From Malacoraja senta (Eukaryota): a DNA stretch of 64,000 nucleotides. This document shows, one piece after another, positions 31,701 through 57,783 of the stretch. The stretch's first letter is position 1, and each line of letters opens with the position of its first letter. The notes under the pieces are model-generated. The model had not been told where the DNA came from, did no database searches, and saw only the letters and a list, made by a program, of their open reading frames with translations. The stretch covers positions 17,238,001-17,302,000 of the forward strand of contig CM075987.1 in assembly GCA_038087875.1 (NCBI GenBank). The letters are read 5' to 3'. The position numbers and the translations under genes are program-made.

Positions 31701-31812
31701 GACAAACAGGCTTTGTCATGAGAAGTCAAGTGTACTTCTCACTCCCCAGTTGCTACTACACCTGCTTGGCTTGTTTAGTTGAATTTAGAAGACATTTCTC
31801 GGTTTGTCATAC

Positions 31813-31892
31813 CTGATATTTGGCAATGACTGCTGCTCAGACACAGACACATTGCCTCGAGAGATTCCACTTGGGGACGCATACCTTTCTCC
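31813..31892 (-). CDS. FBXO41: FBXO41 short coding exon (GERYASPSGISRGNVSVSEQQSLPNI+AG)
   Basis: Acceptor ttttttttgttatctag|G and donor ATCAG|gtatga. 80 nt, open frame. Phase 0 to 2 exactly bridges the flanking exons. Not in the ORF track and poorly conserved in sequence. Confidence 0.8.
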
Positions 31893-31959
31893 CTAGATAA
31901 CAAAAAAAATGGAATTCAAAATTAGGAACAATCTAAACCAGTCACAGGCAAACATTTAG

Positions 31960-33500: not shown

Positions 33501-34334
33501 CGGATTGTGGATTTATGTGGATTGATTTTATCTTTTCAGAATTTGATCATCACGGTAAAAGCCAACTTATCATAGAACCTAGAACAGTTCATAAAGAACA
33601 TAAGGCACAGGACCTTCAGCCCACAATGTCCATGGCGAACATGATGCCAAGACCATCTCTTAGCTGCCTGCCTGGAATCCACATGCCCCATGTGCCCATC
33701 CAAAGGTCTGTTAATGCCGTTGCCATGTCGACCACCTTGACCACCCAAAAGCTCCTTCCAGCCTCTCATCAACCTCTGTGTAAACAGAGTTGCCCCGCAC
33801 ATCTTTTTCAACCTTCGCCCTCTCACCCAACAGCTGTCCTCCAAGATACTTCTACCCAGGAAAAACTGGTCAGACTATTAACCCTATCAATATCCTCTCA
33901 CAATTGTATTTGCTCCCTCAACATCCAGTGTTGCAGCAGTCCAAGTCTGCCCACTGCCTGTAGTTGATGCCCACGAATCTGTGGAATTCTCTGTCTCTCT
34001 GGATGCTTTCAAGAGAGAGCTAGATAGAGCTCTTAAAAATAGCAGAGTCAGGGGATATGGGGAGAAGGCAGGAACGGGGTACTGATTGGGGATGATCAGC
34101 CATGATCATATTGAATGGCGGTGCTGGCTCGAAGGGCCGAATGGTCTCCTCCTGCACCTATTGTCTAATCCAGGCAACATTCTGGGAAACCTCCTCTGCA
34201 CCCTTTCCAGAGTCTTCACATCCTTCCTGTAAAGGGGTGACCAGAGCTGCACATAATACTCCAAACACAGCCTGACCAAAGTCCTGTAGAGCTGCATCAT
34301 GACTTATAGAAACAAGCAACTGCAGATGGTTTCA

Positions 34335-36835
34335 GTGGAGTTTATTGTCACGTGTACCAAGGTACAGTGAAAGGCTTTTGTGGCGTGCTATAAAGATAAT
34401 GCATGATTACAGTCGAGCCATTTACAGTGTACAGATACAGGATAAAGAGAATAACATTTAATGCAAGGTAAAGCCAGTAACTTCCAAGTAAAGATTGGTC
34501 ATCAATGAGGTAGTTAGTAGTTCAGGACTGCTCTCTAGTTGTGGTAGGATGGTTCAGTTGCCTAATAACAGCCGGGAAGAAACTGTCCCTGAATCTGGAG
34601 GTGTGCGTTTTCACACTTCTGTACCTTTTTCCTGATGGGAGAGGAGAGAAGAAGGAGCGACTTGTATTCGATGCTGCTGCTGCTGGCCTTGCCGAGGCAG
34701 CGCGAGGTATAAATAGAGTCAATGGAAGTGAGGTTGGTTTGTGTGATGGTCTGGGCTGCGTCCACAATTTGCTGCAATATCTTGCGGTCTTGGATGGAGA
34801 TTGGACCAAGCAGTACTGCATCTTGATAAAAGCTTTCTGTGGCGCAACTATAGACATTGGTGAGAGTTGTAGGAGACATGCCTAAGCCTAAGGAGGTAGA
34901 GGCGTTGGTGTGCTTTTGTGGTCGTTGCTTCAATATGGGTGGTCCAGGTGAAAATATTGACTCCTACGTAGGTGCCAATACAAACTGGGGTCACTTGCTG
35001 AGGTCCATCACTATCTCCTGTGTCTTTCTGACATTGAAAGGTTGTTGTCACGACACCAGGTTCTCGATCTCCTTCCTGCACTCCGTCTCATCATCATTTG
35101 GTGCAGGATTCCCAGAAGGTTAATCAGCAAGTCAAATCAGTAGTAAGGAAAGCAAACTCAATGCTAGATTATTTCAAGATGGCTTGTATACAAAAACAGG
35201 AATATAAAACCGGGGCTCGAAAAGGCACTGGTCAGGCCGCATTTGGAATTTCATGAGCAATTTTGGGCCCCATATCTGAGGAAGGATGTGCTGGCTCTGA
35301 AGAGGGTCAAGATTCAAGATTCAAGAGAGTTTATTGTCATGTGTCCCAGATAGGACAATGAAATTCTTGCTTTGCTTCAGCACAACAGAATATAGCATAA
35401 ATAGATGCAGAACAGATCAGTGTGACCATATACTATTGAATATATATATACACACACATAAATAATCAGATAAAGTGCTATGGGCTATTAATGTTCAGAG
35501 TTTTGTTTGAGTTGAGTTTAATAGCCTGATGGCTGTGGGGAAGTAGCTATTCCTGAACCTGGATGTTGCAGATTTCAGGCTCCTGTACCTTCTACCTGAA
35601 GGTAGCGGGGAGATGAGTGTGTGGCCAGGATGGTGTGGGTCCTTGATGATGTTGGCAGCCTTTTTGAGGCAGCGACTGTGGTAAATCCCCTCGATGGAAG
35701 GGAGGTCAGAGCCGATGATGGACTGGGCAGTGTTTACTACTTTTTGTAGTCTTTTCCGCTCCTGGGCGCTCAAGTTGCCGAACCAAGCCACGATGCAACC
35801 GGTCAGCATGCTCTCTACTGTGCACCTGTAGAAGTTAGAGAGAGTCCTCCTTGACAAACCGACTCTCCGTAATCTTCTCAGGAAGTAGAGGCGCTGATGT
35901 GCTTTCTTTATAATTGCATCAGTGTTCTCGGACCAGGAGAGATCTTCAGAGATGCGCACGCCCAGGAATTTGAAGGTCCAGAGGTTTACAATAATTATCC
36001 CAGGAATTAGTAGGTTAACCTATGAACCTAACCTAAAGAAATTTCTTTAGTCAGAGGGTGGTGAATCTGTGGAATTCTTTGCCACAGAAAGCTGTGGAAG
36101 CCAAGTCAGTGGATATTTTTAAGGCAGAGATAGATTCCTGATTAGTACGGGTGTCAGAGGTTATTGGGAGAAGGCAGGAGAATGGGGTTAGGAGATAGAT
36201 CAGCCATGATTGAATGGTGGAGTAGACTTGATGGCCTAATTCTATAAATGGCCTAATTCTATTATCATTTATGACCTTTTATACGGCCCACAATGGTGGT
36301 ATCATCTGTGAATTTGTAAATTGAATTAGATGTGTACATGGCTACACAGTCGTGGGTGTACAAGGAGTAAAGAAGGGGGCTGAGAACCTAGCCTTGCGGA
36401 GCACCAGTGTTGAGGATCATCGTAGAGGATGATTTGTTCCCTATCCTCACTGACTGGGGTCTGTTGGTCTGGAAGTCGAGGATCCAGTTATAGTGATGAG
36501 TGCTGACTCCAAGTCAGGTTGGTGATGAGCTGAATTCCCTGGGCAGGTCGTAGGGACGACACTTCAGTCAGATATTGCAGTTCCGGGCAACATGAACTCG
36601 TCAGGACTGCCATGTCTGAGCACCACGAGGTATTAATTAGAAAGCAGACACCACCGCCTCTAACCTTGCCTGAAGATGCTGTACAGTCCATCTGGTGAAG
36701 GAAGAAGCCATCGGGCTGTATGTCAGGGGTGAGCCACGTCTCTGTGAAACAGAGCAGTCTCTCACTTCTTTCAGTCAAGTCATTCCAGCTCCAAGTTCAC
36801 CCAGCTTATTTCCCATGGATTCCATGTTAGCCAGT
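34335..36835 (-). mobile_element. Rex1/Babar-clade fragments (34335-35100, 35310-35975, 36290-36835) interleaved with CR1 pieces
   Basis: ORF 35495-35959 has KKAHQRLYFLRRL. ORF 36488-36778 has LCFTETWL...RGGGVC (APE endonuclease). Confidence 0.82.
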
Positions 36836-37674
36836 GGCATGCTAGGTTCATCTGGGTTAATTCCCGGGACGGCGGGACTGACATATGATGAGAGAATGGA
36901 TCGACTGGGCTTGTATTCTCTGGAATTTAGAAGGATGCGAGGGGATCTTATAGAAACATAACATTCTTAAGGGATTGGACAGGCCAGATGCAGGAAACAT
37001 GTTCCCGATGTAAGGGGGGGGGTCCAGAACCAGGGGTCACAGTTTAAGAATAAGTGAGAGGCTATTTAAGACTGAGATGAGGAAAAACGTTTTCACCTAG
37101 AGAGTTGTGAATCTGTGGAATTCTATAAAAGGCAGTGGAGGCCAATTCACTGGATGTTTTCAAGAGGAAGTTAGATTTACCATATAGGGTAAGGGAATCA
37201 AGGGATATGGGGAAAAAGCAGAAACGGGGTACTGATGTTGGATGATCAGCCATGATCATATTGAATGGCGGTGCAGGCTCCAAGGGCCGAATTGCTTACT
37301 CCTGCACCTATTTTCTATGTTTCTATGCAGGGGGGTGGGATTTAAATCCCTGTTGTTTTAGTCTGACTTGCAGCCCGGCGAGCTTACCCCGTTTCCCCAG
37401 GAGGTGGCAGCACTTGGCCCTGGTGAGCCTGTTCCCTGGGCTGGAGTCAGCGCTGGAGGCCATAGAGGTTTATAGCGCTGGAGTAACCCAGCGGGTCAAG
37501 CAGCATCTCTGGAGAACACACAGAGAGTTGTGAATCTGTGGAGTTCTCTGCCTCAGAAGGCAGTGGAGGCCAATTCACTGGATGCATTCAAAAGAGAGTT
37601 AGATAGAGCTCTAATGGCCAGCGGAATCAAGGGATGTGAGAGGCAGGAACGGGGTACTAATTGTGGATGATTGC

Positions 37675-40560
37675 GGGGTACAGGAGCTTCAGGCGAGACA
37701 GGGTGAGGGAAAAAGAGGAAGGGGGGTTGCATTGTTGGTTAAGGAGGATGTCACGGCTGTGTTCAGAGGTGACATTACAGACGGTTCGTCTAGTGAGGCT
37801 ATATGGGTGGAGCTGAGGAACAAGAAAGGGATGATCACCTTGTTGAGGGTGTACTACAGCTCCTCAAATAGTCAACGGGAATTAGAAGAACAAATGTGCC
37901 GGGAGATTGCAGGCAGCTGCAGGTCAAATAAGGTTGTTGTAGAAGGGGATTTCAACTTTCCAAAATATAGAAAATCATAGCGTGAAGGGTTCAGATGGGG
38001 TGCAATTCCTCAAAAGTGTTCATGAGAGTTTTCTTAAACAGTATGTGGAGGCCCCCACACATGAGAGGGCAACGCTGGATCTAGTATTGGGAAATTGGGA
38101 AGGGCAAGTTAATGAAGTGTGTGTGGAGGAGCCTTTTGGGACCAGTGATCACAGTTCGATTCGGTTTAAGATAGTTAAGGATCAGGACGGGGAGGGTCCA
38201 TGTGTTAAAATGCTCAACTGGGGTAAGCCCAACTTTGAGGGTATGAGAGAAGGTCAAGTTGACTGGAGCAGGCTATTCGAGGGGAAAGGAACATTGGCCA
38301 AGTGGGATGTTTTTAAAACTGTGCTGACGAAAGCTTAGGATATGTACGTCCAATCCCTTAATAAATATAGATGTTTCTATAAGATCCCCTCTCATCTTTC
38401 TCAATTCCAATGAATACAAGCCCAGCCGCTCCATTCTCTCAGCATATGACAGTCCTGGGAATTAACCTTGTGAACACTCGCTGCACTCCCTCAATAGCAA
38501 GAATTTCCCTCATCAGGCAAACATAAGGAAGCTTGGCTGATGAGGGAAATTGAGACGTTAGTCAAAAATAAGAAGGATGCATGGGACAGGTATAGGCAGC
38601 TGGGATCGTGCATCCCTGAAGGAGTTTCGGGAGCTCAGGAGTAAACTAAAAAAGGAAATCAGAAGGGCAAAAATGGAGATAGCTCTGGTGGGTAGTATTA
38701 AGGACAATCCCAAAAGATTTTATGAATACATAAGGGGGGAAAGGGTAACTAGAGAGAGAGTGGGACCTCTCAGGGATCAAAGCGGTCACCTCTGTGTGGA
38801 GTCACAGGAGATGGGCAAGGTCCTCAATGAGTATTTCTCCTCTGTATTTACCGAGGAGAAAGACAGTAGGACGGAGGAAATTGGAGCAGTTACTGGAAGT
38901 GTCTTGAGAGCAGTCAGGGTTACCGTCGAGGAAGTACTGAAGGTACTGTCGTGTTTGAAGGCTTTTGAACATCAAGGGCCTGATCATATATATCCGAGGA
39001 CATTGCGGGAAACTAGAGAGGAAATTGCGTAAGCCTTGGTTGAAATTTATGAGGTCCTTAAATACAGGAGAGGTGCCGGAAGACTGGAGGGTGGCAAATG
39101 TTGTGCCTCATTTCAAGAAGGGCTGCAGGGTAAATGCTGGGAACTATAGGCCGGTGAGCTTAACATCTGTAGTTGGTAAGTTACTGGAGAGTATTATTAG
39201 GAGTATAGACATAGACATAGAAAATAGGTGCAGGAGGAGGCCATTCGGCCCTTTGAGCCAGCACCGCCATTCATTGTGATCATGGCTGATTGTCCCCAAT
39301 ATGCAGGCATTTGGATGGGCAAGGGATGATTAGGGACAGTCAGCATAGTTTTGTACGCGGGAGATGGTGTCTCACAAATCTGATTGAGTTTTTTGAAGAC
39401 GTGACCAAAAAGGTTGATGAAGGCAGAGCTGTAGATGTTGTGTACATGGACTTCAGTAAGGCGTTCGACAATGTGCCGCATGATAGGCTGCTCTGGAAGG
39501 TTAGATCGCATGGGATCCAAGGAGAAAGCTGAATGGATAGCAAATTGGCTCCATGGAAGGAAGCAGAGGGTGTTGCTGGGCCCGTTACTGTTTGTCATCT
39601 ACATCAACGATTTGGATGAGAACATACAGGGCAAGATTAGCAAGTTTACTGATGATACAAAAGTGAGTGGTTTTGCAGATAGTGAAGATGGTTGTGAACG
39701 ATTGCAGCAGGATCAGGATCGATTGGCCAGGTGGGCGGAGGAATGGTTGATGGAATATAATTCAGAGAAGTGTGAGGTGTTGCATTTTGGGATGTCAAAC
39801 AAGGGCAGGACATACACAGTGAATGGTAGGCCTCTGGGTAGTGTTGTAGAGCAGAGGGATGTAGGAGTACAGGTGCATGGTTCCTTGAAGGCCGAGTAGC
39901 AGGTAGATAAGGTGGTCAAAAAGGCTTTTGGCACTGGCCTTCATCAGTCAGAGTATTGAGTATAGAGGTTGGGAGGTCATGTTGTAGTTGTATATGACGT
40001 TGGTGAGACCGCATTTAGAATATTATGTTCAGTTCTGGGCACCATGTTATAGGAAAGATATTGTCAAGCTTGAAAGGGTTCAGAAAAGATTTACGAGGAT
40101 GTTGCCCGGACTAGAGGGTGAGCGCTATAGGGAGAAGTTGAGTAGGCTGGGTCTCTATTCCATGGAGCGCAGGAGGATGAAGGGAGATCTTATAGAGGTG
40201 TATAAAATCATGAGAGGAATGGATCGGGTAGATGCACAGAGTCTTTTGCCCAGAGTAGGGGAATCGAGAACCAGAGGACATAGGTTCAAGGTGAAGGGGA
40301 AAAGATCTAAATAGGAATCCGAGGAGTAACTTTTTCACACAAAGGGTGGTGGGTGTATAGAACAAGCTGCCAGAGGAGGTAGTTGAGGCTGTGACTATTC
40401 CCTCATTTATGAAACAGTTAGACAGGTACATGGATAGGACAGGTTAGGAGGAATATGGACCAAGCGCAGGCAAGTGGGACTAGTGCAGCTGGGACATTGT
40501 TGGCCGGTGTGGGCGAGTTGGGCTGAAGGGCCTGTTTCCACACTGTATTAATCTATGACC
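37675..40560 (+). mobile_element. Degenerate CR1 (second subfamily) ORF2, endonuclease to 3' tail, with nested inserts
   Basis: Fragmented ORFs with GDFNF, SDH, NYRPVSLTS and FTDD motifs. Confidence 0.88.
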
Positions 40561-41184
40561 CTATGATCACATTGAATGGCAATCCTGGCTCGAAGGGTCA
40601 AATGGCCTACTCCTGCACCTGTTTTCTATGTATCTATGGAAAGGTGACGTTTCAGAGTGCTGGAGTAACTCAGCGGGTCAGGCAGCATCTGTGGAGAACA
40701 TGGATAGGTGACGTTTCACAGAGTGCTGGAGTAACTCAGTGGGTCAGGCAGCATCTGTGGAGAACATGGATAGGTGACGTTTTGTGTCAGCACCCCTCTT
40801 TAGCCTGATTGTGGGGGGCTGGAGGTTGGAGGGAGACCGGATTGAAGCATATACAATTATGGAGGCATTGACAGGGTAGGCAGTCAGAATCATGAATTTG
40901 TCAGACTAGAGAACATAGTTTTAAGGTGAGGGGGCCAACGTTTAAATGAAAAGTTTTCTTACACAGTGGAACGGGATGCCACGGCTGGAGGTGGAGAGAT
41001 ACGATAGTGGCACTGAAGAGACTTATTTGAATACACTTAAGAGACTATGTACAGTTAGGGATTGGGGAATGATGGATTATGCGCTGGTGAGAAGAGTTGG
41101 TCTTGGTATGATGTTCGGTACACACATTGTGGGCTGAAGGGCCTGTACTGTTCTATACTATCTATGAATACTCTACTTACTGCT

Positions 41185-41582
41185 GTGCTACTTCTCCGTG
41201 GATTGTCACCTTGTCGTGGTGGAGAAGCTTGTGTGGTCCTGAGATCCTGAGAGCGATGCCGTCTGGAGCTATGCTCCTGGTAGGGCTACCCATGGCTGTA
41301 AGGTCGAGGGGGAGGTCCCCGACAAAGAGCAATCCAACCAAGACCTCAACGGTGGAACAGGTGGAAGACGATGGGTGACCTTAGTGGAGCGGCACAACGG
41401 CTGGGAAGGCGGATGAAGGCTGCAGCAGAAAAGGGTCTCCGGTCGTCTTGGACTCCATGCCACTGGATCCTGACCCAGATCTGTCAAGGACCGTGTGGTG
41501 GCTGTCTGTGCACCAGTCTCCCCATGTTAAACAAAGTCACGCACAGGTGTCCTCCAGGGAATACCACCCTGGAGACACCCAT
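41185..41582 (+). mobile_element. RTE-clade 5' UTR-like sequence
   Basis: GTCACCTTGTCGTGGTGGAGAAGCTTG...CTGGTAGGGCTACCCATGGC resembles RTE (Expander/BovB-type) 5' ends from memory. No ORF follows. Confidence 0.55.
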
Positions 41583-43131
41583 TTCAGCAATGACTGAAGG
41601 GGGCGTAAGAAACTGCTGCTAGTAAGATTTTCATTGTTCCATGCATTTGGCAATTAAACATTCTTGACTCATTGACTGGGGTGGGAGATTGCAACGTCCA
41701 CCCTGTTTCGACTAATGCAATCAACCCGACGTGCACAAATAGATCAAATAGAACAAGTTGACCCACAACTTTAGGCTGTGCACGCCATACGCAAGAAGAC
41801 GACTCGTGGACTCTTCAGACAAAGCCCAGAATTGTGAACACTTCACCAACCACATTGTGAATCTAAGTGCACACTAATTGCCAGATCCCGTTGCTCCTGT
41901 TATTCTGCATTGCCTCTCCTTATTCCTCCTACCAAACTGCATCATGGCTGTCCATTCCACCAGTCTGTTTAGATCATTATTGAGTGTAAAGGTTGGACGT
42001 GTAGTTGGTGAGACCACACTTGAAGCACTGTGTTTCGTTCTGGTCGCCCAGCTACAGGGAAGGATGTCAGAAAGTTGGAAAGGGTGCAGAAGAGATTCAC
42101 CAGGATGTTACCTGGGCTTGCAGACATGATTTATAGGGAGAGGTCTATTAGGCGAGGTCTTTTGGCCTTGAAGCGTAAGAGGCCAAGGTGTTCATTGAGA
42201 TGCACAAGATCATGAGGGGCATGTGGATTCCCCAGGGTAGAGACTTCTAAAACTAGAGTGCATTTGCTTAAGGTGAGAGAGGAGAGATTTTAAGGAGGAC
42301 TTTGGGGACAACATTTTTACCCAGACAGTTGACCTTATCTGGTACGAGCTGCCAGAGGAAGCTATAGAATTGGATTCATTGACAACTTTCAAAAGACATT
42401 TGGAAAGATATATGGATAGGATGGTTTTCAGAAGGCTACGAGCCAAATGCAGGCAAATTAGACGAGGCTGTTGTGCCAACATGTTGGCATGGACAAGATG
42501 GGTTAAAAGTCTCTGTGCCGTATAGCTCTATGACTGTAAACACGGCCTCTGTAACATATATAACTGCAACGTAACATCGCAACTCTACACTAAGTGCCTT
42601 AATTGATGAAGGAAAGCATGCCAAAGGCAATTTACCTGTGATGCCACTTTCAGGGAACTATTACTAGTACCCCAGATCCCCATTCTACAACACTCCCCAG
42701 GATGTGTCCATTCACTGGTTCCATTTCCCAAACTTCCACTTATCTGCATTCAACTCCATTTGCCATTCCTCAGCCCACCTGCCCATCTGATCTAGATCCC
42801 ACTGTAAATCTTGATAATGATCTTCAATGTCTACGATGCCACCCAAATTAGCGCCATCTGCAAACTCAATAATCATTCAAATCATTGAAATTTGTGGTAA
42901 GCTTTGTCCCACGGCCCCAGGTAAAACAGTAGTTTACAACTCTCCAATTACAGGCAAGTCCATCTCTCTCCTTCTGTCCACCGCTACCACCCCACCAAAC
43001 ACTCAGCCATTCATTGTCCTCCCCCAAATGCTCTCATCTGCCCTTCATCTCTCCCTTTATCGGGTGCTACCTAACACTGTACAGATTTGCAGCATCTCAT
43101 CGCCACATCCCCTTCTAACCCCAGTCTCTAA

Positions 43132-43707
43132 AGGGCCTGTCCCACTTGCGCCTCATTTACGCGACAGGCCAGCAGTGACTGATGCGCGACTGTTGCGCGG
43201 AAATCGTCTAGCAGTCCGACAGTCGCGCGCCAAGTAGCGCCAGTCTCCGTGGCAAGGATTTTCCCTGTGAAAATATTTCAAAATTCGGAGTGCTTTATAC
43301 CCGGGTGATCACATGGTGCAGCGCAAATGACATGCAAATGGCGCGCCGATAGCGTAAGGGCGGCACGCGGCGATGCATGGTTAAAGACGTTGACGCACGG
43401 TGACGCATCATTAATTAGCATAGGCAATGTTCGTGCGTCACCATGCGTCACCACGTGCTACATGTACGCCATTAGTACGTCAGCGTATGCCATAAGTACA
43501 TCAGCGTGCGCAAGGGATACGTCACACAGGTGGCGTGCGAGGATTTTGAACATTCCAAAATCCTGGGGCAATAGGGAAGCACCGCGTGTTACCGAGCGTC
43601 AATGCATACGCCACCACGCCTCATTATGCGCGCCACACGACGCGCCAACCAATTTTTAGTATGTTGCGTAAATGATGCGCAAATGACGCCCAAGTGGGAC
43701 AAGCCCT
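43132..43707. mobile_element. PIF/Harbinger-type MITE (CpG-rich)
   Basis: TIRs AGGGCCTGTCCCACTTG / CAAGTGGGACAAGCCCT, TAA on both flanks, and subterminal inverted motifs CATTTACGC / GCGTAAATG. Confidence 0.9.
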
Positions 43708-44669
43708 TAACTCCTCTCTCTCCACCCTTGGCTCAATCTACGACTTTTTAAAAATCCTTTTTCCTTATGCGTCTCTACCTATCACCCACCGTCTCCCGAG
43801 TCCTCTCCTCCACCACCCAGCTGTATTTGCCCATGATCTCCCTCCTCACCTGATCCCACCCGGCATAGAGCTGTACACATGGAAACAACCCCAGCCCACC
43901 TTGTCCACGATAACAACATCAGCATACTGGGCATGGAGCTGTACACAGGGCAACCCCAGCCCACCTTGTCCACGCCAACAACATCAGCAGGTCCCATGTG
44001 CCTGCATTTGCCCCTCCCCATCATATATCGGTCCAAAAGCCTTTGAAAAATCATATATGGATCCACGTCGAAAACTTCTTCTGACAGCGCATTCCACACA
44101 CCGATTACCTTCTGAATGAGTTTGAGTTTAGTTTATTGTCATGTGTACGTGCTAACCAGTCAACAGAAAGACAATATATGATTACAATTGAGCCGTTCAC
44201 AGTGTACAGATACATGATGACGGGAATAACCTGAATAATGTTTCATGATAAAGTCAGTAATTAAAGAGGTTGGTTTGTGTGATGGTCTGGGCTGCGTCCA
44301 CAATTCTTGTGGTCTTGGATGGAGCTGTTTCCAAACCATGCTGTGATGCTTTCTACATGCATCTGTGGAAGTTGGTGAGAGTTTATGAGAGAATGAATGT
44401 GTTATCCTAGAAGTACCTCTTCAATCTCTTCCCTCTCACCTTCATCCTCCTCCTAGTTTTACAATATACTATGCTGAGAAAACGACTGTGAGCATTCACT
44501 TCATTCATCGTACAGCTAAATTAGGCCACCCATCAGCCTCCTACACTCCACAGAAAAATTCACAGCCTACACAACCTCTCTCTCTCTCTATATAACTTAA
44601 TCCCACGTCCAGGTAGTCTCATTCAACCTCTTCTGCACCCGTTCCAACTTAATGACATTTTCCTATGGA

Positions 44670-45925
44670 AACTGAGAAAAATAGGTGCAGGTGTAGGGCC
44701 CTTCGAGCCAGCGCCGCCATTCAATATGATCATGACTGATCATCCACAATCAGTATCCCGTTCCTGCCTTCTCCCCATATGCCTTGATTCCTTTAGCCCT
44801 AAGAGCTAAGTCTAACTCTCTTGAAAACATCCAGTGAATTGGCCTCCACTGCCTTCTGTGGCAGAGAATTCCACAGATTCACAACTCTCTGGGTGAAGAA
44901 GTTTTTCCTCATCTCAGTCCTAAATGGTCTACCCGTTATTCTTAAACTGTGACCCCTAGTTCTGGACTCCCCCAACATCAGGAGCATTTTTCTGCATCTA
45001 GCCTGTCCAATCCTTTAAGAATTTTACATGTTTCTATAAGTTCCCCTCTCATCCTAAATTCCAGTGAATACAAGCCCAGTCGACCGACCCATTCTTTCAT
45101 CATGTCAGTCCCGCCATCCCGGGAATTAACCTGGTGAATTTACGCTGCACTCCCTCAATAGCAAGTATATCCTTCCTCAAATTAGAAGACCAGAATTACA
45201 ACAATACTCCAAGTGTGGTCTCACCAGGGCCCTGTACAACTGCAGTAGGACCTCCTTGCTCCTAAACTCAAATCCTCTCGCAGTGAAGGCAACATGCCAT
45301 TAGCTTTCTTCACTGCCTGCTGTACCTACATGCTTACTTTCAGTGACTGATGTACAAGCACACCCAGGTCTCGTTGCACCTCCCCTTTTCCTAATCTGAC
45401 ACCATTCTGATAATAATCTGAACCCTTTCAAGCTTGACAATATCTTTCCTGTAACATGGTGCCCAGAACTGAACACAATATTCTAAATGTGGTCTCACCA
45501 ACGTCTGTCTTATACAACTGCAACATGAACTTCCAACTTCCACACAATTCCCTCATCTAAATCGTTAATGTATATTGTAAATAACTGGGGTCCCAGCTCT
45601 GAGCCTTGCGGTACCCCACTAGTCACTGCCTGCCATTCTGAAAAGGACCCGTTAATACTTACTCTTTGTTTCCTGTCTGCCAACCAGTTCTCTATCCATG
45701 TCAGTACCCTACCCCCAATACCATGTGCTCTAATTTCGCACACTAATCTCTTGTGTGGGACCTTGTCAAAGGCTTTTTGAAAGTCCAGATACACCACATT
45801 CACTGACTCTCCCTGATCGATTCTACTTGTTAGATCCTTAAAAACTTCCAGGAGATTAGTCAAGCATGATTTCCCCTTTATAAATCCGTGCTGACTTTGA
45901 CTGTTCCTGTCACTGCTTTCCAACT
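44670..45925 (-). mobile_element. CR1 fragments
   Basis: ORFs 44799-44987 and 45510-45923. Confidence 0.85.
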
Positions 45926-46634
45926 GCGTGACCAGAACTGTACACTGTATCCAAGTGTGCTCTCACCAATGATTTGATTCTCACCAAGTCAAGAAAAGCT
46001 ATAATATTTTCAGGTAGCTTTGTTCTTTAATTTCATGTCAGATGAGATTTTGGTGACACAAGAGACTGCAGACACTGCTATCTTGAGCAAGATACAACGT
46101 GCTGGAGAAACTCAGCGGGTCATAGCTTTAAGGTGAGTGGCAAAGTTTAAAGGAGATGTTTCTTTTACACAGAGGATGGGCAGTGCTGGGAATGTGCTGT
46201 CAGGGTGGTGGTAGAGGCAGCATTTAAGTGAGTGTTGAATAGGCACATGGATATGCAGGGAATTGAGGCATATGCAGCCAGATAAGAGATGGCCTTGGCA
46301 TGAAAAAGTGTGGTGAACTGTGGAATTCATTGTCACAGACAGCTGTGGAGGCCGTCAATGGATATTTTAAACGTGGAGATTGGCAGGTTCTTGATTAGTA
46401 CGGGTGTCAGGGTTATGGGCGAAGACAGGAGAATGGGGTTGAGAGGGAAAGATAGATCAGCCATGATTGAATGGCAGAGTTCACTTGATGGGCTGAATGG
46501 CCTTATTCTGCTCCTAGAACTTATGAACTTATGTTGGGCACAGACATTGTGTGCCAAAGGGCCTGTTCCTGTGCTGTACTCTTCTATGTTCAGATTAGAT
46601 TTTGATTTCATTATTAATCGAACCCACATACCTG

Positions 46635-47112
46635 TTAGATACAAAATGCTGGAGTAATTCAGCGGGACAGACAGCATCTCTGGATAGAAGGAATGGGTGA
46701 CGTTTCAGGTCGAGACCCTTCTTCAGACTGAGTCAGGGGAGAGGGAGACAGAGATAAAGAAGGGCAAAGTGTACAGATGAGGCATCACAGGAGATGGTGA
46801 TCAAGGAAAATGTAAAATAGATCATTGGTAGCTAGGAGAAGTTGACGACGAAGCACAAGGAGATAAAATGTAATCATGGGGACAGTCAGACTGGTCGGAG
46901 AACTAGGAAGTGGGAGGGATGGAGAGGAAAAGCAAGGGTTACTCTCTACCTCCCCCCCCCACTTCTCCTTTGATGTCTCATTTTCACACCTTACCCTTCC
47001 TTACCTCTGTGTCTCCCTCTTGTGACTCTCAGTGTGAAGAAGGATCTCAACCTGAAACATCACCATTCCTTCTCTCCAGAGATGCTGCCTGTCCCGCTGA
47101 GTTACTCCAGTT
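46635..47112. mobile_element. Inverted pair of Penelope-type terminal repeats
   Basis: ~46640-46780 (-) is approximately the reverse complement of ~46975-47110 (+). Confidence 0.8.
46695..46730 (-). ncRNA. Minimal type-I hammerhead ribozyme motif (Penelope-associated)
   Basis: Minus strand CAGU-CUGAAGA-A-GGGUC-UC-GACCU-GAAA-C-GUC/ACCC: conserved core, stem II, palindromic minimal stem III and a GUC cleavage triplet. Activity is untested. Confidence 0.65.
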
Positions 47113-47131
47113 GGGTGTTCCCCCCACATAC

Positions 47132-47342
47132 CTGTTGTCTGCCAGCTTCCTTTGGCCCGAGATTGCTGCATCGGCCCAGGCTGCCGTTTGGTGTTGACCC
47201 ACAGCTGCTGATGACCATCAGCTGCTTCTCCGCCCTGTCCGCTCGGTCCAGAAGCTCCTCGATGAACTGCTGCAGGCGGACCTTTGCGTTAGCTTCTCGT
47301 GCCGCCGTGTCTTGTAAAAACTGATCGATCTGTAACACCTCC
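47132..47342 (-). CDS. FBXO41: FBXO41 internal coding exon (coiled-coil end; EVLQIDQFLQDTAAREANAKVRLQQFIEELLDRADRAEKQL...GRQQ)
   Basis: Acceptor tttgcag|G and donor CAG|gtatgt. 211 nt, phase 2 to 0. The peptide closely matches the vertebrate FBXO41 segment QIDQFLKETAAREASAKLRLQQFIEELLERADRAE (recalled). Confidence 0.95.
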
Positions 47343-48164
47343 CTGCAAAAACCAAGACCAAAACAAAAAGCTGACAATTCAACTGGCTTACATTATCACA
47401 CCATCAGCAATGTATAGATTAAAATATATATATTTTATAGACCTAACTAAACTTTTAAATTCATAGTCATTCAGCACAGAACAGGCCCTTCAGCCCAACT
47501 CATCCATGCCGATCAAGATCTCCCATCTAAACTAGTGCCATTTCCCATGTTGGGCCCATATCATTCTAAACCGTTCCTATCCATGTACCTGTCCAAATGT
47601 TTTTAAAATGTTGTTATTGTACCTCATTTAAAGGAGATGTGCAGGCTTTTGTTTTTACACAGTCAAGTCAAGAGAGTTTATTGTCCAGTGTCCCAGATAG
47701 GACAATGAAATTCTTGCTTTGTAAACAAAGCAAGAATATGTAAACAAAAATACAGAACAGTTCAGTTCAATATACACATAAATAAGCAGAGTGGTGGGGG
47801 CCTAGAAGGTGCGGCCAGGGGTGGTGGAGGAGGCAGATACGTACGTGGCATTTAATAAGGGTTTAAACAGGCACGTGGATATGCAAGGAATGGAGGGACA
47901 TGGATCACGTGAGTGCAAATGGCACTAGTTTATCTTGGTAAGATGTTTGGTAGACTTGTGAACGGAAGGGCCTGTTGCTATGCTGCAGTTGTACTTTCTA
48001 TGATGTACTTCTGGTTCCAAATACCCACCACACACACTGCATGAAACATTGCCCCTCACGTTCCTATTAAATCTTTCACCTTAAACCTATGGTGTCTGGT
48101 TCTTGATTCCCCTACTCTGCACAAAAGACTCAATCAATTGCTCTCGTCATTTTATACATGTTCT

Positions 48165-48655
48165 GTATGAACCCAAGACAGCAAGAAATTGCAGCGAATT
48201 GTGGATGCAGCCCAGACCATCACACAAATCAACCTCCCTTCCATTGACTCCATCTACACCTCACGCTGCCTCGGCAAGGCCAGCAGCATAATCAAGGACC
48301 AGTCTCACCCTGGCCACTCCCTCTTCCTCCCTCTCCCATCAGGCAAAAGGTACAGAAGTGTGAAAACGCACACCTCCAGATTCAGGGACAGTTTCTTCCC
48401 AGCTGTTATCAGGCAAGTGAACCATCCTACCACAACCAGAGAGTAGTGCTGAACTATTATCTACCTCATTGGAGACCATCCTTGATCGGACTTTGCTGGC
48501 TTTACCTTGCACTAAACGCTATTCCCTTATCATATATCTATACACTGTAAATGGATCGATTGTAATCATGTATTGTCTTTCTACTGACTGGCTAGCATGC
48601 AACAAAAGCTTTTCACTGTACCTCACAACACATGACAATAAACTAAAGTGAAACT
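48165..48655 (+). mobile_element. Rex1/Babar-clade 3' fragment
   Basis: ORF 48189-48446, same family as 15860-16325. Confidence 0.85.
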
Positions 48656-51324
48656 GGTCACACTATTGCAGGAAGGATTTGGTAGCTTTGGAAAGGGTGC
48701 AGAGGTGGTGACCAGAATGCTGCCTGGATTACAGGGAGAGGTTGGAGACTCTGGAACACCAGAGGTTGCGGGCAGATCTGATAGAAGTGTATAAAGTTAT
48801 GAGAGAGGCTAATTTTAAGGAGATGTGTGGGGTAACTTTTTCTCACACCAGAGGGTGGTGGTTGTGACAAAATAGAGACTTTTGGATAGGCTGGATTATT
48901 GGATAGAATGGATAGTGTGCAGATAGATAAGAGATGATCTTGGTATTGTGGACTAAAGGGCCTGTTCTTCTGTCGTGCTGTTCTAGGTTTCACACCTCTG
49001 TAAGATCACCTACATCCTCCTGCCCTCCAAGGAAACGATGCAATTAAAAGAGGGGTTTGATCACATGATCAGAACATACTGAAGCACTCAGGAGGTCAGG
49101 CAGCATATATGGAAAGAGAGACACATTTCATATATGTTTGGAGTGCAAAGTTATGTGGCCCCTCGGCAACCAGTGCCAGCAAGCCCTTTTATAAAACATT
49201 TATCCCACTACAGATCAGGCTATGGGAATGGTCATGTGATAGAAGCAGAATTAGGCCATTCGGCCCATCAAGTCTACTCCGCCATTCAATCATGGAATGA
49301 TTTATGTACAGGAGTCTTCCTCTTTTGCTAAAATTGGATCCAATATTGGTCTACTAATAGGAGTCAGTGAACGAACAAGCTGTGAGCTCTGAACTACAAA
49401 ATACTATATTATTTTTTGTTATTTGCACTATATTTGTTATTTAGTGAACTTTTTCTTTTTTCTTCCCTTAATGTACAATGTTTCCATATTCACATATTCT
49501 GTTGTGCTGCAGCAAATAAGAATTTCATTGTCCCATCCGGGACATACGACAATAAAACTCTCTTGACTTGACTTGTTGGTAGAGGATAGTTTTTGTGATT
49601 GGAAGCCTGTGAATATTGTGTACCAAATAGGTGCCAAGATCCTCACGGTTTAGCATCAGAGAGTAAAACAGATTGGGAACAGGCCCTGCAGTCCAACTGC
49701 TGCCTGCCCATCTGGACACCCATCTCAGTATATTGGTAGACACAAAAAGCTGGAGTAACTCAGCGGGTCAGACACCATCTCTGGAGAAAAGGAATAGGTG
49801 ATGTTTTGTGTCAAGACCCTTCTTCAAAGGATTAATGTGGGCAGGTATTTGATAAAGATTTGGAATGGACAGTGGAGAGCCAAAGGGTCTGTTTTTATGC
49901 TCTACTGTACAAACAGCCTTTGGCCTCTTTCTTCATAGCTCAGATTTCCACTCATAAAACATAGAATAGAACAGCACATGAACGGCCCTAGGGCCCATGT
50001 CTGTGCCGAACATGATGCCAAGACCAACTCTTATCTGCTTACACGTGGCCCATGTCCCTCCATATCCTTATGCCTATCGAAATGTTTCACAAACACCACA
50101 ACTGTATCTGCCTCAACCACAGTGAACAAGTTGAGGTGATGCGAGGTTCATTTGGACAAGCAGAAAGCACTTAGCATCCACGAGTGACTACTCATTAGCT
50201 GGTGCACCAAAGGAAGGTAGATGCTGGAGGATCAACCGTGTGAAGGCAGGGCGCCCTGTTGAGGCTAGGTGTGAGGCTTTGGTTCAAGAGGCTTCTGTGT
50301 AGATGCAGCACAGTGATGCACCAGAGTGGTTTGCTCAAAGCGCCAGCGTAGGTTCACCAGGTTAATTCCCGGGATGGCGGGACTGACATATGATGAAAGA
50401 ATGGGTCTACTGGGCTTGTATTCACTGGAATTTAGGAGGAGAGGGGATCTTATAGAAACATATACAATTCTTGGGTAGATGCAGGAAAAATGTTCCCGAT
50501 GTTGGGGGCGTCCAGAACCAGAGGTCACTGAGATGAGGAAAAACATTTTCATCCACAGAGTTGTGAATCAGTGGAATTCTCTGCCACAGAAGGCACTGGA
50601 GGCCAATTCACTGGATATTTTCAAGAGAGAGTTAGATTTAGCTCTTAGGGCTAAAGGAATCAAGGGATTTGGGGAAACAGCAGGAACGAGGTACTGATTT
50701 TGGATGATCAGCCATGATCATATTGAATGGCGGTGCTGACTCGAAGGGCCGAATGGTCTACTCCTACACCTATTTCCTATGTTTCATCTTATAGGAGAAG
50801 AATTATGCCATTCTGCCCATCAAGTCTACAGCACCATTTAATCATGACTGATCTGTTTCTCTCTGAATCTCATTCTCCCGCCTTCTCCCGATAACCCCTG
50901 ATACCCGCACTAATCAAGAATCTATCTCTCTGGTGTAAAAATACCCAATGACTTGACCTCCACATACGTCTGTGGCAATGAATTCAGTTTCACCACCCTC
51001 TGACTGAAGAAATTCCTCCTCGTCTACTTTCTAAAGGTACATCCTTTTATTCTGAGGCAATGGCCTCTGGTCCTAGACTCTTGCACTAGTACATAAAACA
51101 TCCACTCTATCCAGGCCTTCCACTATTCAGTAAGTTTCAATGATGTCCCTCCTCATCCTTCTAAACTCCAGCAAGTAGAGGTCCAGTGTCGTCAGAGGTT
51201 CATCCTATGTTAACCCAATCATTCCTGGGATCATTCTTGTAAACCTCCCGTGAATGCTCTCCAATGATAGCACATCCTTCCTTACATGAATAAGTTTATT
51301 GGCCAAGTATTTACATATAAGGTA

Positions 51325-55280: not shown

Positions 55281-56364
55281 GATATGGGGCAACTGTTCAC
55301 AATTCCAGTTGAACACAGATTTTCCTGCACCCTCCAGAGCCTTTGTAGATGATCAATTTTTCTGGAACAACAGAGGTCATGTGATAATTATACGACAATC
55401 CAACTCTGGCCTACTATTGCCATCCCTCCTGTGTCTCTAAAGCTGCCATAAACTTCAATAAAACTAACATAAAATGTATAGGAAGGAATTGCAGATGCTG
55501 GTTTAAACCGAAGAGAGACACAAATGGCTGCAGTAACTCAGAGGGACAGGCAGCATCTGTGGAGAGAAGGAATGGGTGACGTTTTAGGTCGAGACCCTTC
55601 TTCATCGTGCGCCGCAACAACAGCCTTGTCACCGGAACGTGCGGTGGGTGAAGAAGGGCTCGCTGGTTCACTTTTCCAGTTGGGAGTGGGAAGGGTCTCG
55701 ATCCAAAACATCACCCATTCCCTCTCTCCAGAGATGCTCCCTGTCCCACTGAGTTACTCCAGCTTTTTGTGTCTATCTTAATATAAAATGTACACTGAAT
55801 GTGAATGGAATGAGCTGCTGACCCAACCCCCGGCTGGCACAGTCTCCAGCTTCCATTCCCGCTCCCCAGACTGGCAAAGTACATCAGCGAGCCCGTCTTC
55901 ACCCACAGCACGTTCCGGTGACACGGCTGTTGTTGCCGCTCACAATTAGCCCCTGGGGTCAGAACGCTGGGCACCAAGCAGTGGGGATACAGTAGAACCA
56001 GGATGGGTCGGCAGGTCCATCCGCTATATCCGAACGGAAACGTCACCTATTCCTTCGCTCCATAGATGCTGCCTCACCCGCTGAGTTTCTCCAGCACTTT
56101 TGTCTACCTTCGATTTTTCCAGCATCTGCAGTCCTTTCTTAAACATCTTTTATAAGGTGGTCGTTAAAAGGAGGGTTTACCGTATTGTCTTTGGAAACAG
56201 TTAGGAGAGAAGATTGAGAGGGTAGTTCATTATTTTGCGACACGACCGGAGAGAGAGGTCACCACTCGCAACGCCATCTGTGGCCGCTCAGGGAATTTCA
56301 ATTGACTGTTCGTCCAGTTATGGGGTGGGCGGACCTTCATTTGCCGGAGAATCAGTGTTCAACC

Positions 56365-57583: not shown

Positions 57584-57783
57584 NNNNNNNNNNNNNNNNN
57601 NNNNNNNNNNNNNNNNNNNNNNNNNNNNNNNNNNNNNNNNNNNNNNNNNNNNNNNNNNNNNNNNNNNNNNNNNNNNNNNNNNNNNNNNNNNNNNNNNNNN
57701 NNNNNNNNNNNNNNNNNNNNNNNNNNNNNNNNNNNNNNNNNNNNNNNNNNNNNNNNNNNNNNNNNNNNNNNNNNNNNNNNNNN
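57584..57783. other. Assembly gap (200 N)
   Basis: Run of exactly 200 N. The left edge ends inside a CR1 3' fragment and the right edge begins in a Penelope-type repeat. Confidence 1.

What the first reader, a model, noticed from the sequence alone, without database searches (positions are those of the whole stretch)
46635..47131. Hammerhead-ribozyme motif in sense orientation within the FBXO41 pre-mRNA, inside an inverted repeat ~20 nt from a splice donor
Seen: on the transcribed (minus) strand, 46730-46695 reads CUGAAGA-A-GGGUC-UC-GACCU-GAAA-CGUC/ACCC. This is a complete hammerhead core with an extra A before stem II and a palindromic ACGU minimal stem III. Its host repeat has an inverted partner at ~46975-47110 that starts about 20 nt into the intron from the donor at 47131. 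Established: Penelope-like elements carry minimal hammerheads that generally cleave as dimers. Inference: the nascent intron could either fold into a ~140-bp duplex that masks the ribozyme and crowds the 5' splice site, or form the ribozyme, giving a possible structural switch. Stem I is very short, so it may simply be an inactive relic.
Basis: partly seen in the sequence, partly recalled or inferred. Interest (0 to 1): 0.7.

Follow-up and report, generated by a model that had tools for sequence, protein, structure and literature searches.

The report
Decayed Penelope retrotransposon fragment beside splice donor
The hammerhead-like motif is real, but it is the standard minimal hammerhead carried by a hugely abundant Penelope-like retrotransposon, and this copy is an old, decaying insertion in an FBXO41 intron, most likely with no ribozyme role.

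Summary
The minus strand 46726-46699 reads CUGAAGA-A-GGGUCUCGACCU-GAAA-CG-UC. It lies in a repeat whose inverted partner (46964-47110) starts 20 nt past the FBXO41 splice donor.

It is not a gene-specific device. It is one Penelope-like element (PLE) insertion with three parts:
- a 5'-truncated ~310-bp copy of the element's 3'UTR/pLTR;
- an adjacent inverted, shorter copy;
- one exact 14-bp target-site duplication around both.

This is the published architecture of PLE insertions. Elsewhere in the genome the same 3'UTR follows a reverse transcriptase plus GIY-YIG endonuclease ORF. Tail fragments occur about once per 4 kb.

The motif matches the published PLE minimal-hammerhead consensus: extra base after A9, GAAA, palindromic CG, UC, and a 2-bp helix I. 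No Rfam hammerhead model detects it.

This copy has the conserved G10.1-C11.1 pair decayed to G-U. It has no sense partner nearby for dimer cleavage. In the predicted fold it is buried in a ~150-bp duplex.

The one notable detail is that the target-site duplication copied the splice donor, leaving an identical second donor 500 nt downstream.

Verdict: a known kind of element and a probable inactive relic. Low interest.

The parts
47132..47341 (-). FBXO41 coding exon (residues 240-309 of skate FBXO41), ending in ...GRQQ at 47132
   Evidence: 96% identity to Rhinoraja longicauda FBXO41; the tblastn block is 47341-47132. The next coding block lies at about 31892, so the intron is about 15.2 kb.
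47123..47136 (-). Upstream copy of the 14-bp target-site duplication. On the minus strand it reads AACAG|GTATGTGGG, that is exon -5 to intron +9, and it contains the splice donor at the exon boundary defined by protein alignment.
   Evidence: D2, exact 14/14 repeat, spacing 500.
47111..47122 (+). 12 nt between the duplication and the inverted arm. Probably the diverged 3' terminus or short tail of the inverted copy.
   Evidence: the right-hand duplication lies 12 nt from the end of the copy.
46964..47110 (+). Inverted, 5'-truncated copy of the PLE 3'UTR/pLTR, with its 3' end facing outward. It is antisense in the FBXO41 pre-mRNA. Its hammerhead remnant at 47033-47060 is broken (C3 to G; CG to CA at 15.2/16.2).
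   Evidence: It differs from the family majority at 28 of 173 positions.
46944..46963 (-). About 20 nt of G-rich filler at the head-to-head junction, with no significant match to the element
   Evidence: the best local alignment of the junction is only the continuation of the inverted arm.
46637..46943 (-). Direct copy of the PLE 3'UTR/pLTR. It is 5'-truncated exactly at the element's stop codon and sense to FBXO41.
   Evidence: 39 scored places elsewhere in the genome cover query 193-211 to 494-510 at 83-86% identity; in other copies an ORF ending ...GMNIDFSNFK* runs into this point. It differs from the family majority at 16 of 172 positions.
46699..46726 (-). Minimal hammerhead motif: CUGAAGA, extra A, helix II GGGU/ACCU with a CUCG loop, GAAA, CG, UC. 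Predicted cleavage lies after C at 46699. Helix I is 2 bp (46728-46727 with 46698-46697).
   Evidence: It fits the consensus in supplement Fig. S3 of PMC4209133.
46623..46636 (-). Downstream copy of the target-site duplication. It carries a second, identical AACAG|GTATGTGGG donor sequence with its G at 46631.
   Evidence: D2.

Best explanation
This is a fossil insertion of a Penelope-like retrotransposon (PLE), and the hammerhead motif is the element's own cis motif carried along as a passenger.

How it arose (inferred). The PLE reverse transcriptase/GIY-YIG endonuclease made staggered cuts 14 bp apart, one 5 nt inside the FBXO41 exon and one at intron position +9. Reverse transcription was then primed from the 3' end of PLE RNA on both DNA strands. 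This left a ~310-bp copy of the 3'UTR/pLTR and a head-to-head inverted copy of about 150-160 bp. Both have their 3' ends facing outward, and one 14-bp target-site duplication encloses them. The duplication copied the donor sequence, so the exon kept an intact 5' splice site.

What it does now (inferred). In the pre-mRNA the two arms most likely pair into a ~150-bp imperfect hairpin that is removed with the 15-kb intron. The hammerhead does not act, for four reasons:
- minimal PLE hammerheads need a second sense copy to build helix III;
- they are poor cleavers even then;
- this copy has lost the G10.1-C11.1 pair;
- the motif is sequestered by the arm that is transcribed before it.

Shown: the anatomy, the family membership, the abundance, the decay and the predicted folds.
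Inferred: the insertion mechanism and the lack of activity.
For: Family and element type
- The 310-bp unit recurs across the genome: 8,548 first-look candidates, and all 40 places scored match.
- In other copies an ORF ending ...GSLHPSGMNIDFSNFK* runs straight into the unit.
- A 541-aa open frame (L043) carries RVT_1 (E 2.3e-5) followed by GIY-YIG (E 3.5e-4).
- The nearest Atlas clusters carry RVT_1, GIY-YIG and HTH_animal, with score 0.97.
- The endonuclease part has 98,049 first-look candidates.

Architecture
- Craig et al. [quoted passage not shown] They also describe a 30-40-bp tail at one end and hammerheads in the pLTRs.
- In my sample, 13 of 24 neighbouring pairs of tail copies have their 3' ends outward, against 3 in the opposite order.
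- 6 of 13 such pairs are flanked by direct repeats of 9-14 nt. In four of the five pairs at other loci a 27-45-nt tail lies on one side only.
- The Anolis PLE protein cleaves and extends both DNA strands in vitro (PMC11167929, passages).

Motif
- It fits the published consensus 'CUGANGAH G...C GAAA N-palindrome-N U H' (PMC4209133, text and supplement Fig. S3).
- The same CUGAAGAA ... GAAA-CG-UC boxes occur in the Takifugu, Xenopus and snake entries of that figure.

Decay
- This copy differs from the family majority 28-mer at C11.1, now T, a CpG site.
- Of 53 other copies, 28 keep the invariant core, 17 also keep G-C at 10.1/11.1, and 9 keep every feature.
- The direct arm is 9.3% and the inverted arm 16% from the family majority. 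The family mean is 7.2%.

Folding
- The 521-nt region has a minimum free energy of -281.4 kcal/mol, z = -15.1, with the motif inside the long stem.
- The duplex between the arms scores -226.9 kcal/mol. The hammerhead-like fold scores -2.0, against -10.5 for a competing local hairpin.
Against: - Both Pfam hits are below their curated cut-offs: RVT_1 24.6 bits against 29.6, and GIY-YIG 21.3 against 22.6. The protein assignment therefore rests on domain order, the Atlas leads and the ORF's motifs. The PLE clade was not determined.
- No Rfam hammerhead model matches at E<=10. This holds for this copy within 6 kb and within 91 nt and for a majority-type copy. 'Hammerhead' here rests on a descriptor-level fit only.
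- All invariant core bases of the direct copy are intact, and a G-U pair at 10.1/11.1 still pairs, so residual activity cannot be excluded by sequence alone.
- I obtained no locus-specific expression, splicing, editing or cleavage data. The read layout was swamped by paralogous copies.
- No orthologous empty site could be examined, so the single-event reading rests on the one duplication and on recurrence of the architecture.
Confidence: 0.85

Rival explanations
1. The long intronic hairpin has a passive RNA-level effect. It could be an A-to-I editing substrate, or it could influence the choice between the two identical donor sequences that it brings together at its base. The ribozyme would play no part.
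For: - The predicted stem is about 150 bp, with minimum free energy -281.4 kcal/mol and z = -15.1.
- Two identical 14-nt donor sequences flank it.
- From recalled general knowledge, long inverted-repeat duplexes in introns are typical ADAR substrates.
Against: - No editing or junction data could be obtained.
- Use of the downstream donor would add 500 nt and meet a stop codon 9 codons in, at 47102-47104. The annotated skate protein continues directly from ...GRQQ into the next exon.
- Such hairpins are common in this genome: 13 of the 24 neighbouring tail-copy pairs sampled are head to head. This one is therefore unlikely to be under special selection.
Confidence: 0.12
2. One reading: the motif is an active self-cleaving ribozyme, and competition between it and the duplex acts as a switch on FBXO41 splicing or transcript stability.
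For: - The core bases CUGAxGA, GAAA and UC are intact and sense to the transcript.
- The motif lies about 405-432 nt downstream of the donor.
Against: - The motif is inherited from a mass-copy family.
- It has G-U at 10.1/11.1.
- No other copy in the window passes the descriptor on either strand, so there is no intact sense partner for dimer formation.
- The competing structures are far more stable.
- Published minimal PLE hammerheads show no detectable activity as monomers and low activity as dimers (PMC4209133). In the Anolis PLE, cleavage was not needed for insertion, and no RNA-seq reads began or ended at the cut site (PMC11167929).
- Only 1 of 77 truncated family copies begins at the predicted cleavage product end.
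Confidence: 0.03
3. The structure is not a single retrotransposition. It is either two independent insertions or a DNA transposon / MITE with ~150-bp terminal inverted repeats.
For: Terminal inverted repeats plus a flanking direct repeat look superficially like a MITE.
Against: - The arms are unequal, 5'-truncated copies of the 3'UTR of an RT/endonuclease element.
- Most family members are single-orientation copies with a constant 3' end and variable 5' ends.
- One duplication encloses both arms, and no second duplication flanks either arm.
- The same arrangement recurs at other loci, each with its own 9-13-nt duplication.
Confidence: 0.03

Closest known systems
Minimal hammerhead motifs (min-HHR) of metazoan Penelope-like elements (Cervera & de la Pena 2014, PMC4209133)
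   Same: - CUGANGA box.
- One unpaired base between A9 and G10.1.
- Helix II opening with G...C in the family majority.
- GAAA, palindromic 15.2/16.2 (C-G) with no loop 3, then U-C.
- A short helix I, and a location in the pLTR downstream of the RT-EN ORF.
- The boxes CUGAAGAA ... GAAA-CG-UC are letter-for-letter those of the Takifugu, Xenopus (1) and Trimeresurus entries.
   Different: - Helix II is only 4 bp plus a tetraloop. Many published families have 5-8 bp, though Nematostella (2) and Acropora also have 4.
- Helix I is 2 bp, at the low end of the published range, as in D. virilis, Culex and Oikopleura.
- This particular copy has G-U at 10.1/11.1.
- No cartilaginous fish appears in the published alignment that I read.
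Complex tandem/inverted insertion structure of PLEs (Craig et al. 2021, PMC8557442; Evgen'ev & Arkhipova 2005 as cited there)
   Same: - 5' truncation.
- An inverted 5'-truncated copy directly adjacent at the 5' end.
- Inverted repeats framing the unit.
- A short extension at one end, and the hammerhead in the pLTR.
   Different: - No ORF and no tandem pLTR remain at this locus.
- The tail is only about 12 nt here. At other loci of this genome it is 27-45 nt.
Non-LTR retrozymes (tandem hammerhead repeats that give circular RNAs; PMC7229834 seen as a listing and abstract, bioRxiv 10.64898/2026.07.22.740005 read as abstract and passages)
   Same: A type I hammerhead of PLE origin. The preprint reports such elements in the one chondrichthyan it sampled.
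   Different: There is no tandem array of sense copies here. A single sense motif plus an antisense arm cannot give a unit-length circle.
Inverted SINE pairs in introns and L1 'twin-priming' inversions
   Same: Head-to-head retroelement copies within one target-site duplication, forming a long intronic RNA duplex.
   Different: In L1 twin priming the inverted piece comes from a more 5' part of the RNA. Here both arms end at the element's 3' terminus, as expected if both DNA strands prime at the RNA's 3' end.

Membership tests
PLE minimal hammerhead (min-HHR, PMC4209133) | Catalytic boxes CUGANGA and GAAA, and U16.1-H17 | tested here: met
   CUGAAGA, GAAA and UC are all intact in the direct copy.
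PLE minimal hammerhead (min-HHR, PMC4209133) | One unpaired nucleotide (H) between positions 9 and 10.1 | tested here: met
   An A at 46719. The consensus 'CUGANGAH' is in supplement Fig. S3.
PLE minimal hammerhead (min-HHR, PMC4209133) | Highly conserved G10.1-C11.1 pair closing helix II | tested here: not met
   This copy has G-U, through a C to T change at a CpG site. The family majority, and 17 of 53 other copies with an intact core, have G-C. The family qualifies. This copy is a decayed member.
PLE minimal hammerhead (min-HHR, PMC4209133) | Palindromic 15.2/16.2 with no or minimal loop 3 (helix III forms only in a dimer) | tested here: met
   A-CG-U. However, no other copy in the window passes the descriptor on either strand, so no intact sense partner is available in the intron.
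PLE minimal hammerhead (min-HHR, PMC4209133) | Helix I of a few base pairs flanking the core | tested here: inconclusive
   Only 2 bp (U-A, G-C) here, and 2 bp in 15 of the 17 motif hits in other loci. Two-bp helices I are published for D. virilis, Culex and Oikopleura.
PLE minimal hammerhead (min-HHR, PMC4209133) | Located in the pLTR of an element encoding RT + GIY-YIG | tested here: met
   the motif lies about 110-210 nt downstream of the ORF stop in the copies examined.
PLE minimal hammerhead (min-HHR, PMC4209133) | Self-cleavage after H17 | not testable with these tools
Indirect evidence: 1 of 77 truncated genomic copies starts at the expected product end.
Rfam hammerhead families (types I, II, III, HH9, HH10) | Covariance-model score at or above the gathering threshold | tested here: not met
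   No hammerhead hit even at E<=10 in 6 kb, in 91 nt, or in a majority-type copy.
Penelope-like element insertion | Single ORF with a reverse transcriptase followed by a C-terminal GIY-YIG endonuclease | tested here: inconclusive
   RVT_1 at 24.6 bits (cut-off 29.6) and GIY-YIG at 21.3 bits (cut-off 22.6), in the right order on one 541-aa frame. Atlas neighbours carry RVT_1 and GIY-YIG. The evidence is consistent but falls below Pfam's own thresholds.
Penelope-like element insertion | 5' truncation, an adjacent inverted 5'-truncated copy, and a one-sided short tail | tested here: met
   compared with the description in PMC8557442.
Penelope-like element insertion | Target-site duplication flanking the whole unit | tested here: met
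   An exact 14-nt duplication. Duplications of 9-13 nt flank other pairs, and of 10-13 nt flank single copies.
Non-LTR retrozyme | Two or more sense hammerheads in tandem delimiting a unit | tested here: not met
   There is one sense motif only, and the second arm is inverted.

The most novel reading that the evidence does not exclude
This reading concerns the family, not the locus. The ~93-nt module of hammerhead plus tail may be a unit in its own right, whose RNA begins only 0-5 nt upstream of the CUGA box.

Such RNAs could be solo-pLTR transcripts or a SINE-like mini-element mobilised by the PLE enzyme, present at perhaps 10^5 copies. Helix I could then never exceed the observed 2 bp. The 'hammerhead' would serve mainly as a 5'-terminal structure of the template RNA rather than as a self-cleaver.

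Support:
- 22 of 77 truncated copies start at family positions 232-236, and 33 of 77 at positions 226-240.
- Target-site duplications abut these ends directly in four cases.
- Only 1 of 77 truncated copies starts at the predicted cleavage product end.
Probability: 0.2. Interest if true: 0.4.

Novelty: new member of a known kind. Interest (0 to 1): 0.15.

Why it matters
For FBXO41 it probably does not matter. The insertion is one of a very large number of decaying copies of the same element.

Its value is as a clean textbook example, in a cartilaginous fish, of several things:
- The PLE insertion anatomy: an inverted 5'-truncated copy, a one-sided tail, and one target-site duplication.
- A minimal hammerhead family that was not in the 2014 survey I read.
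- A retroelement landing 9 nt inside an intron without destroying the splice site, because the duplication regenerates the donor.

It is also a caution for genome scans. In genomes rich in PLEs, hammerhead cores in sense orientation inside introns are expected by the thousand. They need family-level analysis before any locus-specific reading.

Tried and rejected
- Rfam covariance models: no hammerhead match at E<=10 in three searches. The only hits near the site were weak microRNA-like matches to the hairpin tip at 46896-46972.
- My early idea that the repeat is a tRNA-derived SINE read on the other strand (A-box and B-box look-alikes). Rejected because the constant end is the CATTTTGT end, the 5' ends vary, an ORF runs into the other end, and duplications fit the ribozyme-sense orientation.
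- MITE reading: rejected (see rivals).
- Snap-back or hairpin origin of the junction. The G-rich filler has no significant DNA-level match to the start of the direct copy. The best alignment is only the continuation of the inverted arm.
- RNA evidence. The look-up of sequencing runs listed no RNA holder for the stretch. I laid three contig sets of related organisms and one poly-A RNA run on 31000-48500. The output was dominated by paralogous repeat copies. No joint for the 47131 donor and no piece spanning the insertion junctions appeared among the rows shown. Nothing can be concluded about splicing, editing, cleavage ends or orthologous presence.
- Earlier findings of the scan: three look-ups returned nothing.
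A 60-kb sample was used instead.
- Lunse, Weinberg & Breaker (RNA Biol, PMC5785218) is not held. I saw it only as a reference and in the summary given in PMC6765202.
- A search for Penelope + transposable elements + skate + shark listed 3 papers, none read. I found no description in print of this skate family or of its hammerhead. The searches behind that statement were made, and the find over supplement file 2 of PMC4209133 (file 1 was not searched).
- Supplements of the bioRxiv preprint are closed and may list chondrichthyan families.

Full report
**Observation**

The minus strand of the window reads CAGU (46730-46727), then CUGAAGA-A-GGGUC-UC-GACCU-GAAA-CG-UC (46726-46699), then ACCC.

The repeat finder gives inverted arms 46649-46696 / 47063-47110 (94% complementary) and 46696-46732 / 47028-47064 (89%). 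BLAST of the region against the window joins them into 148-nt arms, 46649-46794 and 46964-47110, at 83% identity.

The exon upstream is FBXO41. Its 70-residue translation finds 444 proteins at E<=0.001, named F-box only protein 41 in the rows listed, with 96% identity to the Rhinoraja longicauda protein. tblastn of that protein places residues 240-309 on 47341-47132 and the next block near 31892. The donor G is therefore at 47131, the inverted arm begins 20 nt into the intron, and the intron is about 15.2 kb.

An exact 14-nt direct repeat, CCCACATACCTGTT, sits at 46623-46636 and at 47123-47136, spaced 500 nt apart (D2). On the transcribed strand it reads AACAG|GTATGTGGG, which is the last five exon bases plus the first nine intron bases. 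It brackets the whole inverted-repeat structure, as a target-site duplication would.

**The repeat family**

The window holds about a dozen further copies of the ~90-nt arm. A search of the window's own 1.94-Gb genome gave 8,548 first-look candidates. Of the 40 places scored:
- one is the window's own locus (100% identical);
- 38 cover positions 193-211 to 494-510 of the minus-oriented query at 83-86% identity, which defines a unit of about 310 bp, window 46943 down to 46637;
- one (L002) also covers the inverted arm, at 77%.

In these copies the sequence upstream of the unit is conserved too and is coding. An open frame ending ...LEEQHLIFRLGSLHPSGMNIDFSNFK* stops at the first bases of the unit. 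The endonuclease-like end of that frame has 98,049 first-look candidates in the genome.

A 541-residue open frame at L043 carries Pfam RVT_1 (residues 64-201, E 2.3e-5, 24.6 bits) followed by GIY-YIG (residues 445-479, E 3.5e-4, 21.3 bits). Both are below Pfam's curated cut-offs, but they are in the order that defines canonical Penelope-like elements. The nearest named clusters in the protein atlas (score 0.97) carry RVT_1, GIY-YIG and HTH_animal in animals. A CX4CX2C motif precedes the GIY-YIG part. I did not determine the clade.

The 310-bp unit is therefore the 3'UTR/pLTR of a PLE.

**Architecture**

Craig et al. 2021 (PMC8557442, passages read) describe PLE insertions as follows:
- highly 5'-truncated;
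- often with a 30-40-bp tail at only one end;
- with hammerhead motifs in the pLTRs.

The window locus has all of these in order:
- the duplication;
- 12 nt;
- the inverted copy with its 3' end outward (47110 to 46964);
- about 20 nt of G-rich filler;
- the direct copy, truncated exactly at the element's stop codon (46943 to 46637);
- the duplication again.

The arrangement recurs. Among 24 neighbouring pairs of tail copies within 500 bp in the window and fetched loci, 13 have their 3' ends outward, 3 have the opposite order, and 8 are direct. One of the 13 is this locus. One more (L002) was favoured by my query.

Six of the 13 head-to-head pairs are flanked by direct repeats of 9-14 nt. In four of the five pairs at other loci a 27-45-nt tail lies on one side only. 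One such pair is in the window at 55516-55775. Four of 20 single short copies have 10-13-nt duplications that abut both ends. Of 500 random pairs of similar length, 6 share 9 or more letters and 2 share 10 or more.

The Anolis PLE protein cleaves and extends both DNA strands in vitro, unlike R2 or L1 (PMC11167929, passages). This gives a mechanism for two copies primed from the RNA's 3' end on opposite strands. That this mechanism produced the FBXO41 insertion is an inference.

**The motif**

I read Cervera & de la Pena 2014 (PMC4209133): parts 1-2 of 4 of the main text, and supplement file 2, parts 1-2. They define minimal hammerheads in the PLTRs of metazoan PLEs. Their listed non-trivial features are:
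- the G10.1-C11.1 pair;
- palindromic 15.2-16.2.

Their 80% consensus is 'NNN CUGANGAH G...C GAAA N-palindrome-N U H NNN'.

The skate family majority, CUGAAGAA-GGGU-CUCG-ACCC-GAAA-CG-UC, fits this consensus. It uses the same CUGAAGAA and GAAA-CG-UC boxes as the Takifugu, Xenopus (1) and Trimeresurus entries. Helix I is only 2 bp here and in 15 of the 17 motif hits in other loci. Two-bp helices I are published for D. virilis, Culex and Oikopleura.

My own descriptor, built from that description, finds one site in the window and none in 200 shuffles, so the motif is not a chance match.

Against this, no Rfam hammerhead model matches at E<=10, either for this copy or for a majority-type copy. The 99-nt tail of a majority-type copy is no more structured than shuffles (z = 0.21) and its best fold is not a hammerhead.

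**State of this copy**

It differs from the majority 28-mer at one position, C11.1 to T, a CpG transition that turns the conserved G-C pair into G-U.

Among 53 other copies that span the motif:
- 28 keep the invariant core;
- 17 of those also keep G10.1-C11.1;
- 9 keep all features;
- 4 are identical to the majority.

The commonest losses are at the three CpG sites, including G12 to A.

The inverted arm's motif has C3 to G and a broken 15.2/16.2 pair. In any case it is antisense in the pre-mRNA.

The direct arm differs from the family majority at 16 of 172 positions and the inverted arm at 28 of 173. The family mean is 7.2%. The insertion is therefore about as old as, or older than, typical copies.

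No other copy in the window passes the descriptor on either strand, so no intact sense partner for dimer formation lies in the same intron.

**Folding**

The 521-nt stretch from the donor to the second donor folds at -281.4 kcal/mol (shuffles -163 +/- 7.8, z = -15.1). The motif lies inside the long stem.

| Structure | Energy (kcal/mol) |
|---|---|
| Duplex between the two arms | -226.9 |
| 37-nt motif segment paired with the inverted arm | -62.5 |
| 56-nt motif region alone, best fold (GAAGAAGGGU with ACCCAUUCCUUC) | -10.5 |
| Hammerhead-like pairing (helix I 2 bp + helix II 4 bp) | -2.0 |

The inverted arm lies 5' of the motif in the transcript, so it is available before the motif is made.

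The literature I read adds the following. The minimal motifs show no detectable self-cleavage as monomers and low activity as dimers (PMC4209133). In the Anolis element, cleavage was not needed for insertion, and no RNA-seq reads began or ended at the cut site (PMC11167929).

**Abundance**

In the window plus six arbitrarily chosen 10-kb stretches (124 kb in all) there are 32 tail hits, about one per 4 kb. Scaled to 1.94 Gb this is of the order of 5 x 10^5 fragments, a rough extrapolation. Two descriptor-compliant motifs occur in those 124 kb. Sense-strand hammerhead cores in introns must therefore be commonplace in this genome.

**Explanation and verdict**

The finding is a fossil PLE insertion. 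The hammerhead is the element's own motif, a decayed member of a known kind, and it most likely does nothing for FBXO41.

The locus-specific point of interest is that the duplication regenerated the splice donor and left an identical decoy 500 nt downstream (G at 46631). Use of the decoy would add 500 nt and meet a stop after nine codons.

Whether the hairpin is edited or affects donor choice remains open, because I could not obtain locus-specific RNA data. No RNA holder was listed, and the read layout was swamped by paralogues.

**A family-level oddity**

Of 107 copies that reach the 3' end in about 202 kb of window and fetched loci, 77 are truncated within the tested span. Of those 77, 22 begin at family positions 232-236, which is 0-3 nt upstream of or at the CUGA box, and 33 begin at positions 226-240. 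Only one begins at the end expected for a hammerhead cleavage product. Duplications abut these 5' ends directly in four cases. This suggests a discrete ~93-nt template RNA that starts at the hammerhead's 5' edge. I could not explain it further.

Noticed in passing
window 46623-46636 and 47123-47136: The 14-bp target-site duplication spans exon -5 to intron +9. The insertion therefore regenerated the splice donor and left an identical second donor sequence (G at 46631) 500 nt downstream. Using the second donor would add 500 nt and meet a stop after 9 codons (47102-47104).
   Followed up: partly
family positions 232-240 of the unit, equal to window 46729-46721; examples at window 49734-49826, 55516-55604, 59896-59979 and L003:2291-2383: Many independent ~90-93-nt copies begin within a few bases of the hammerhead's CUGA box: 22 of 77 truncated copies at positions 232-236. 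Target-site duplications abut these ends directly. Only 1 of 77 begins at the predicted cleavage product end.
   Followed up: partly
window 55516-55775: A second head-to-head PLE tail pair. It is flanked by a 10-nt duplication (ATAAAATGTA), with a ~38-nt tail extension on the left side only.
   Followed up: yes
whole genome (G000): The family is extremely abundant. The endonuclease part has 98,049 first-look candidates. Tail fragments occur about once per 4 kb in 124 kb of window plus arbitrary stretches, which extrapolates to roughly 5 x 10^5 fragments.
   Followed up: partly
window 46685-46740 (minus); L027:1712-1810: The purine run of the hammerhead core (GAAGAAGGGU) pairs with the pyrimidine run just after the cleavage site (ACCCAUUCCUUC). 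This gives a local hairpin more stable than the hammerhead fold, -10.5 against -2.0 kcal/mol. A second tail subtype keeps it through G-U-compatible changes, judged by eye.
   Followed up: partly
downstream of many copies, for example L005, L011, L014, L029 and window 26340-26380: A ~40-nt sequence of the type TCTTCGGTTTAAACCAGCATCTGCAGTTCCTTCCTACA follows the element's usual end in some copies only. This fits the published one-sided PLE tail. It is itself a very common sequence in the window and loci.
   Followed up: partly
window 46944-46963: A run of nine G followed by AGGTAGAGAG forms the junction between the two arms. It has no significant DNA match to the element. In RNA it pairs with the C/U-rich start of the direct copy, which produced the weak microRNA-like Rfam hits at 46896-46972.
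   Followed up: partly
L043:425-565 and L044:376-515 compared with window 46699-46943: Copies attached to long RT-EN frames have only about 107 nt between the ORF stop and the hammerhead. The window's subtype has about 213 nt. The stop-proximal ~20 nt and the hammerhead-plus-tail module are shared, and the middle differs by an indel of about 100 nt.
   Followed up: partly
window 57584-57783: A run of 200 N, an assembly gap.
   Followed up: no
window 46731 and 47110 (loose ends): Poly-A RNA reads of a related organism (772 and 1,397 reads) match the tail and run on into other sequences, including the tail extension. PLE tails are therefore present in many transcripts there, but the reads cannot be assigned to this locus.
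   Followed up: no
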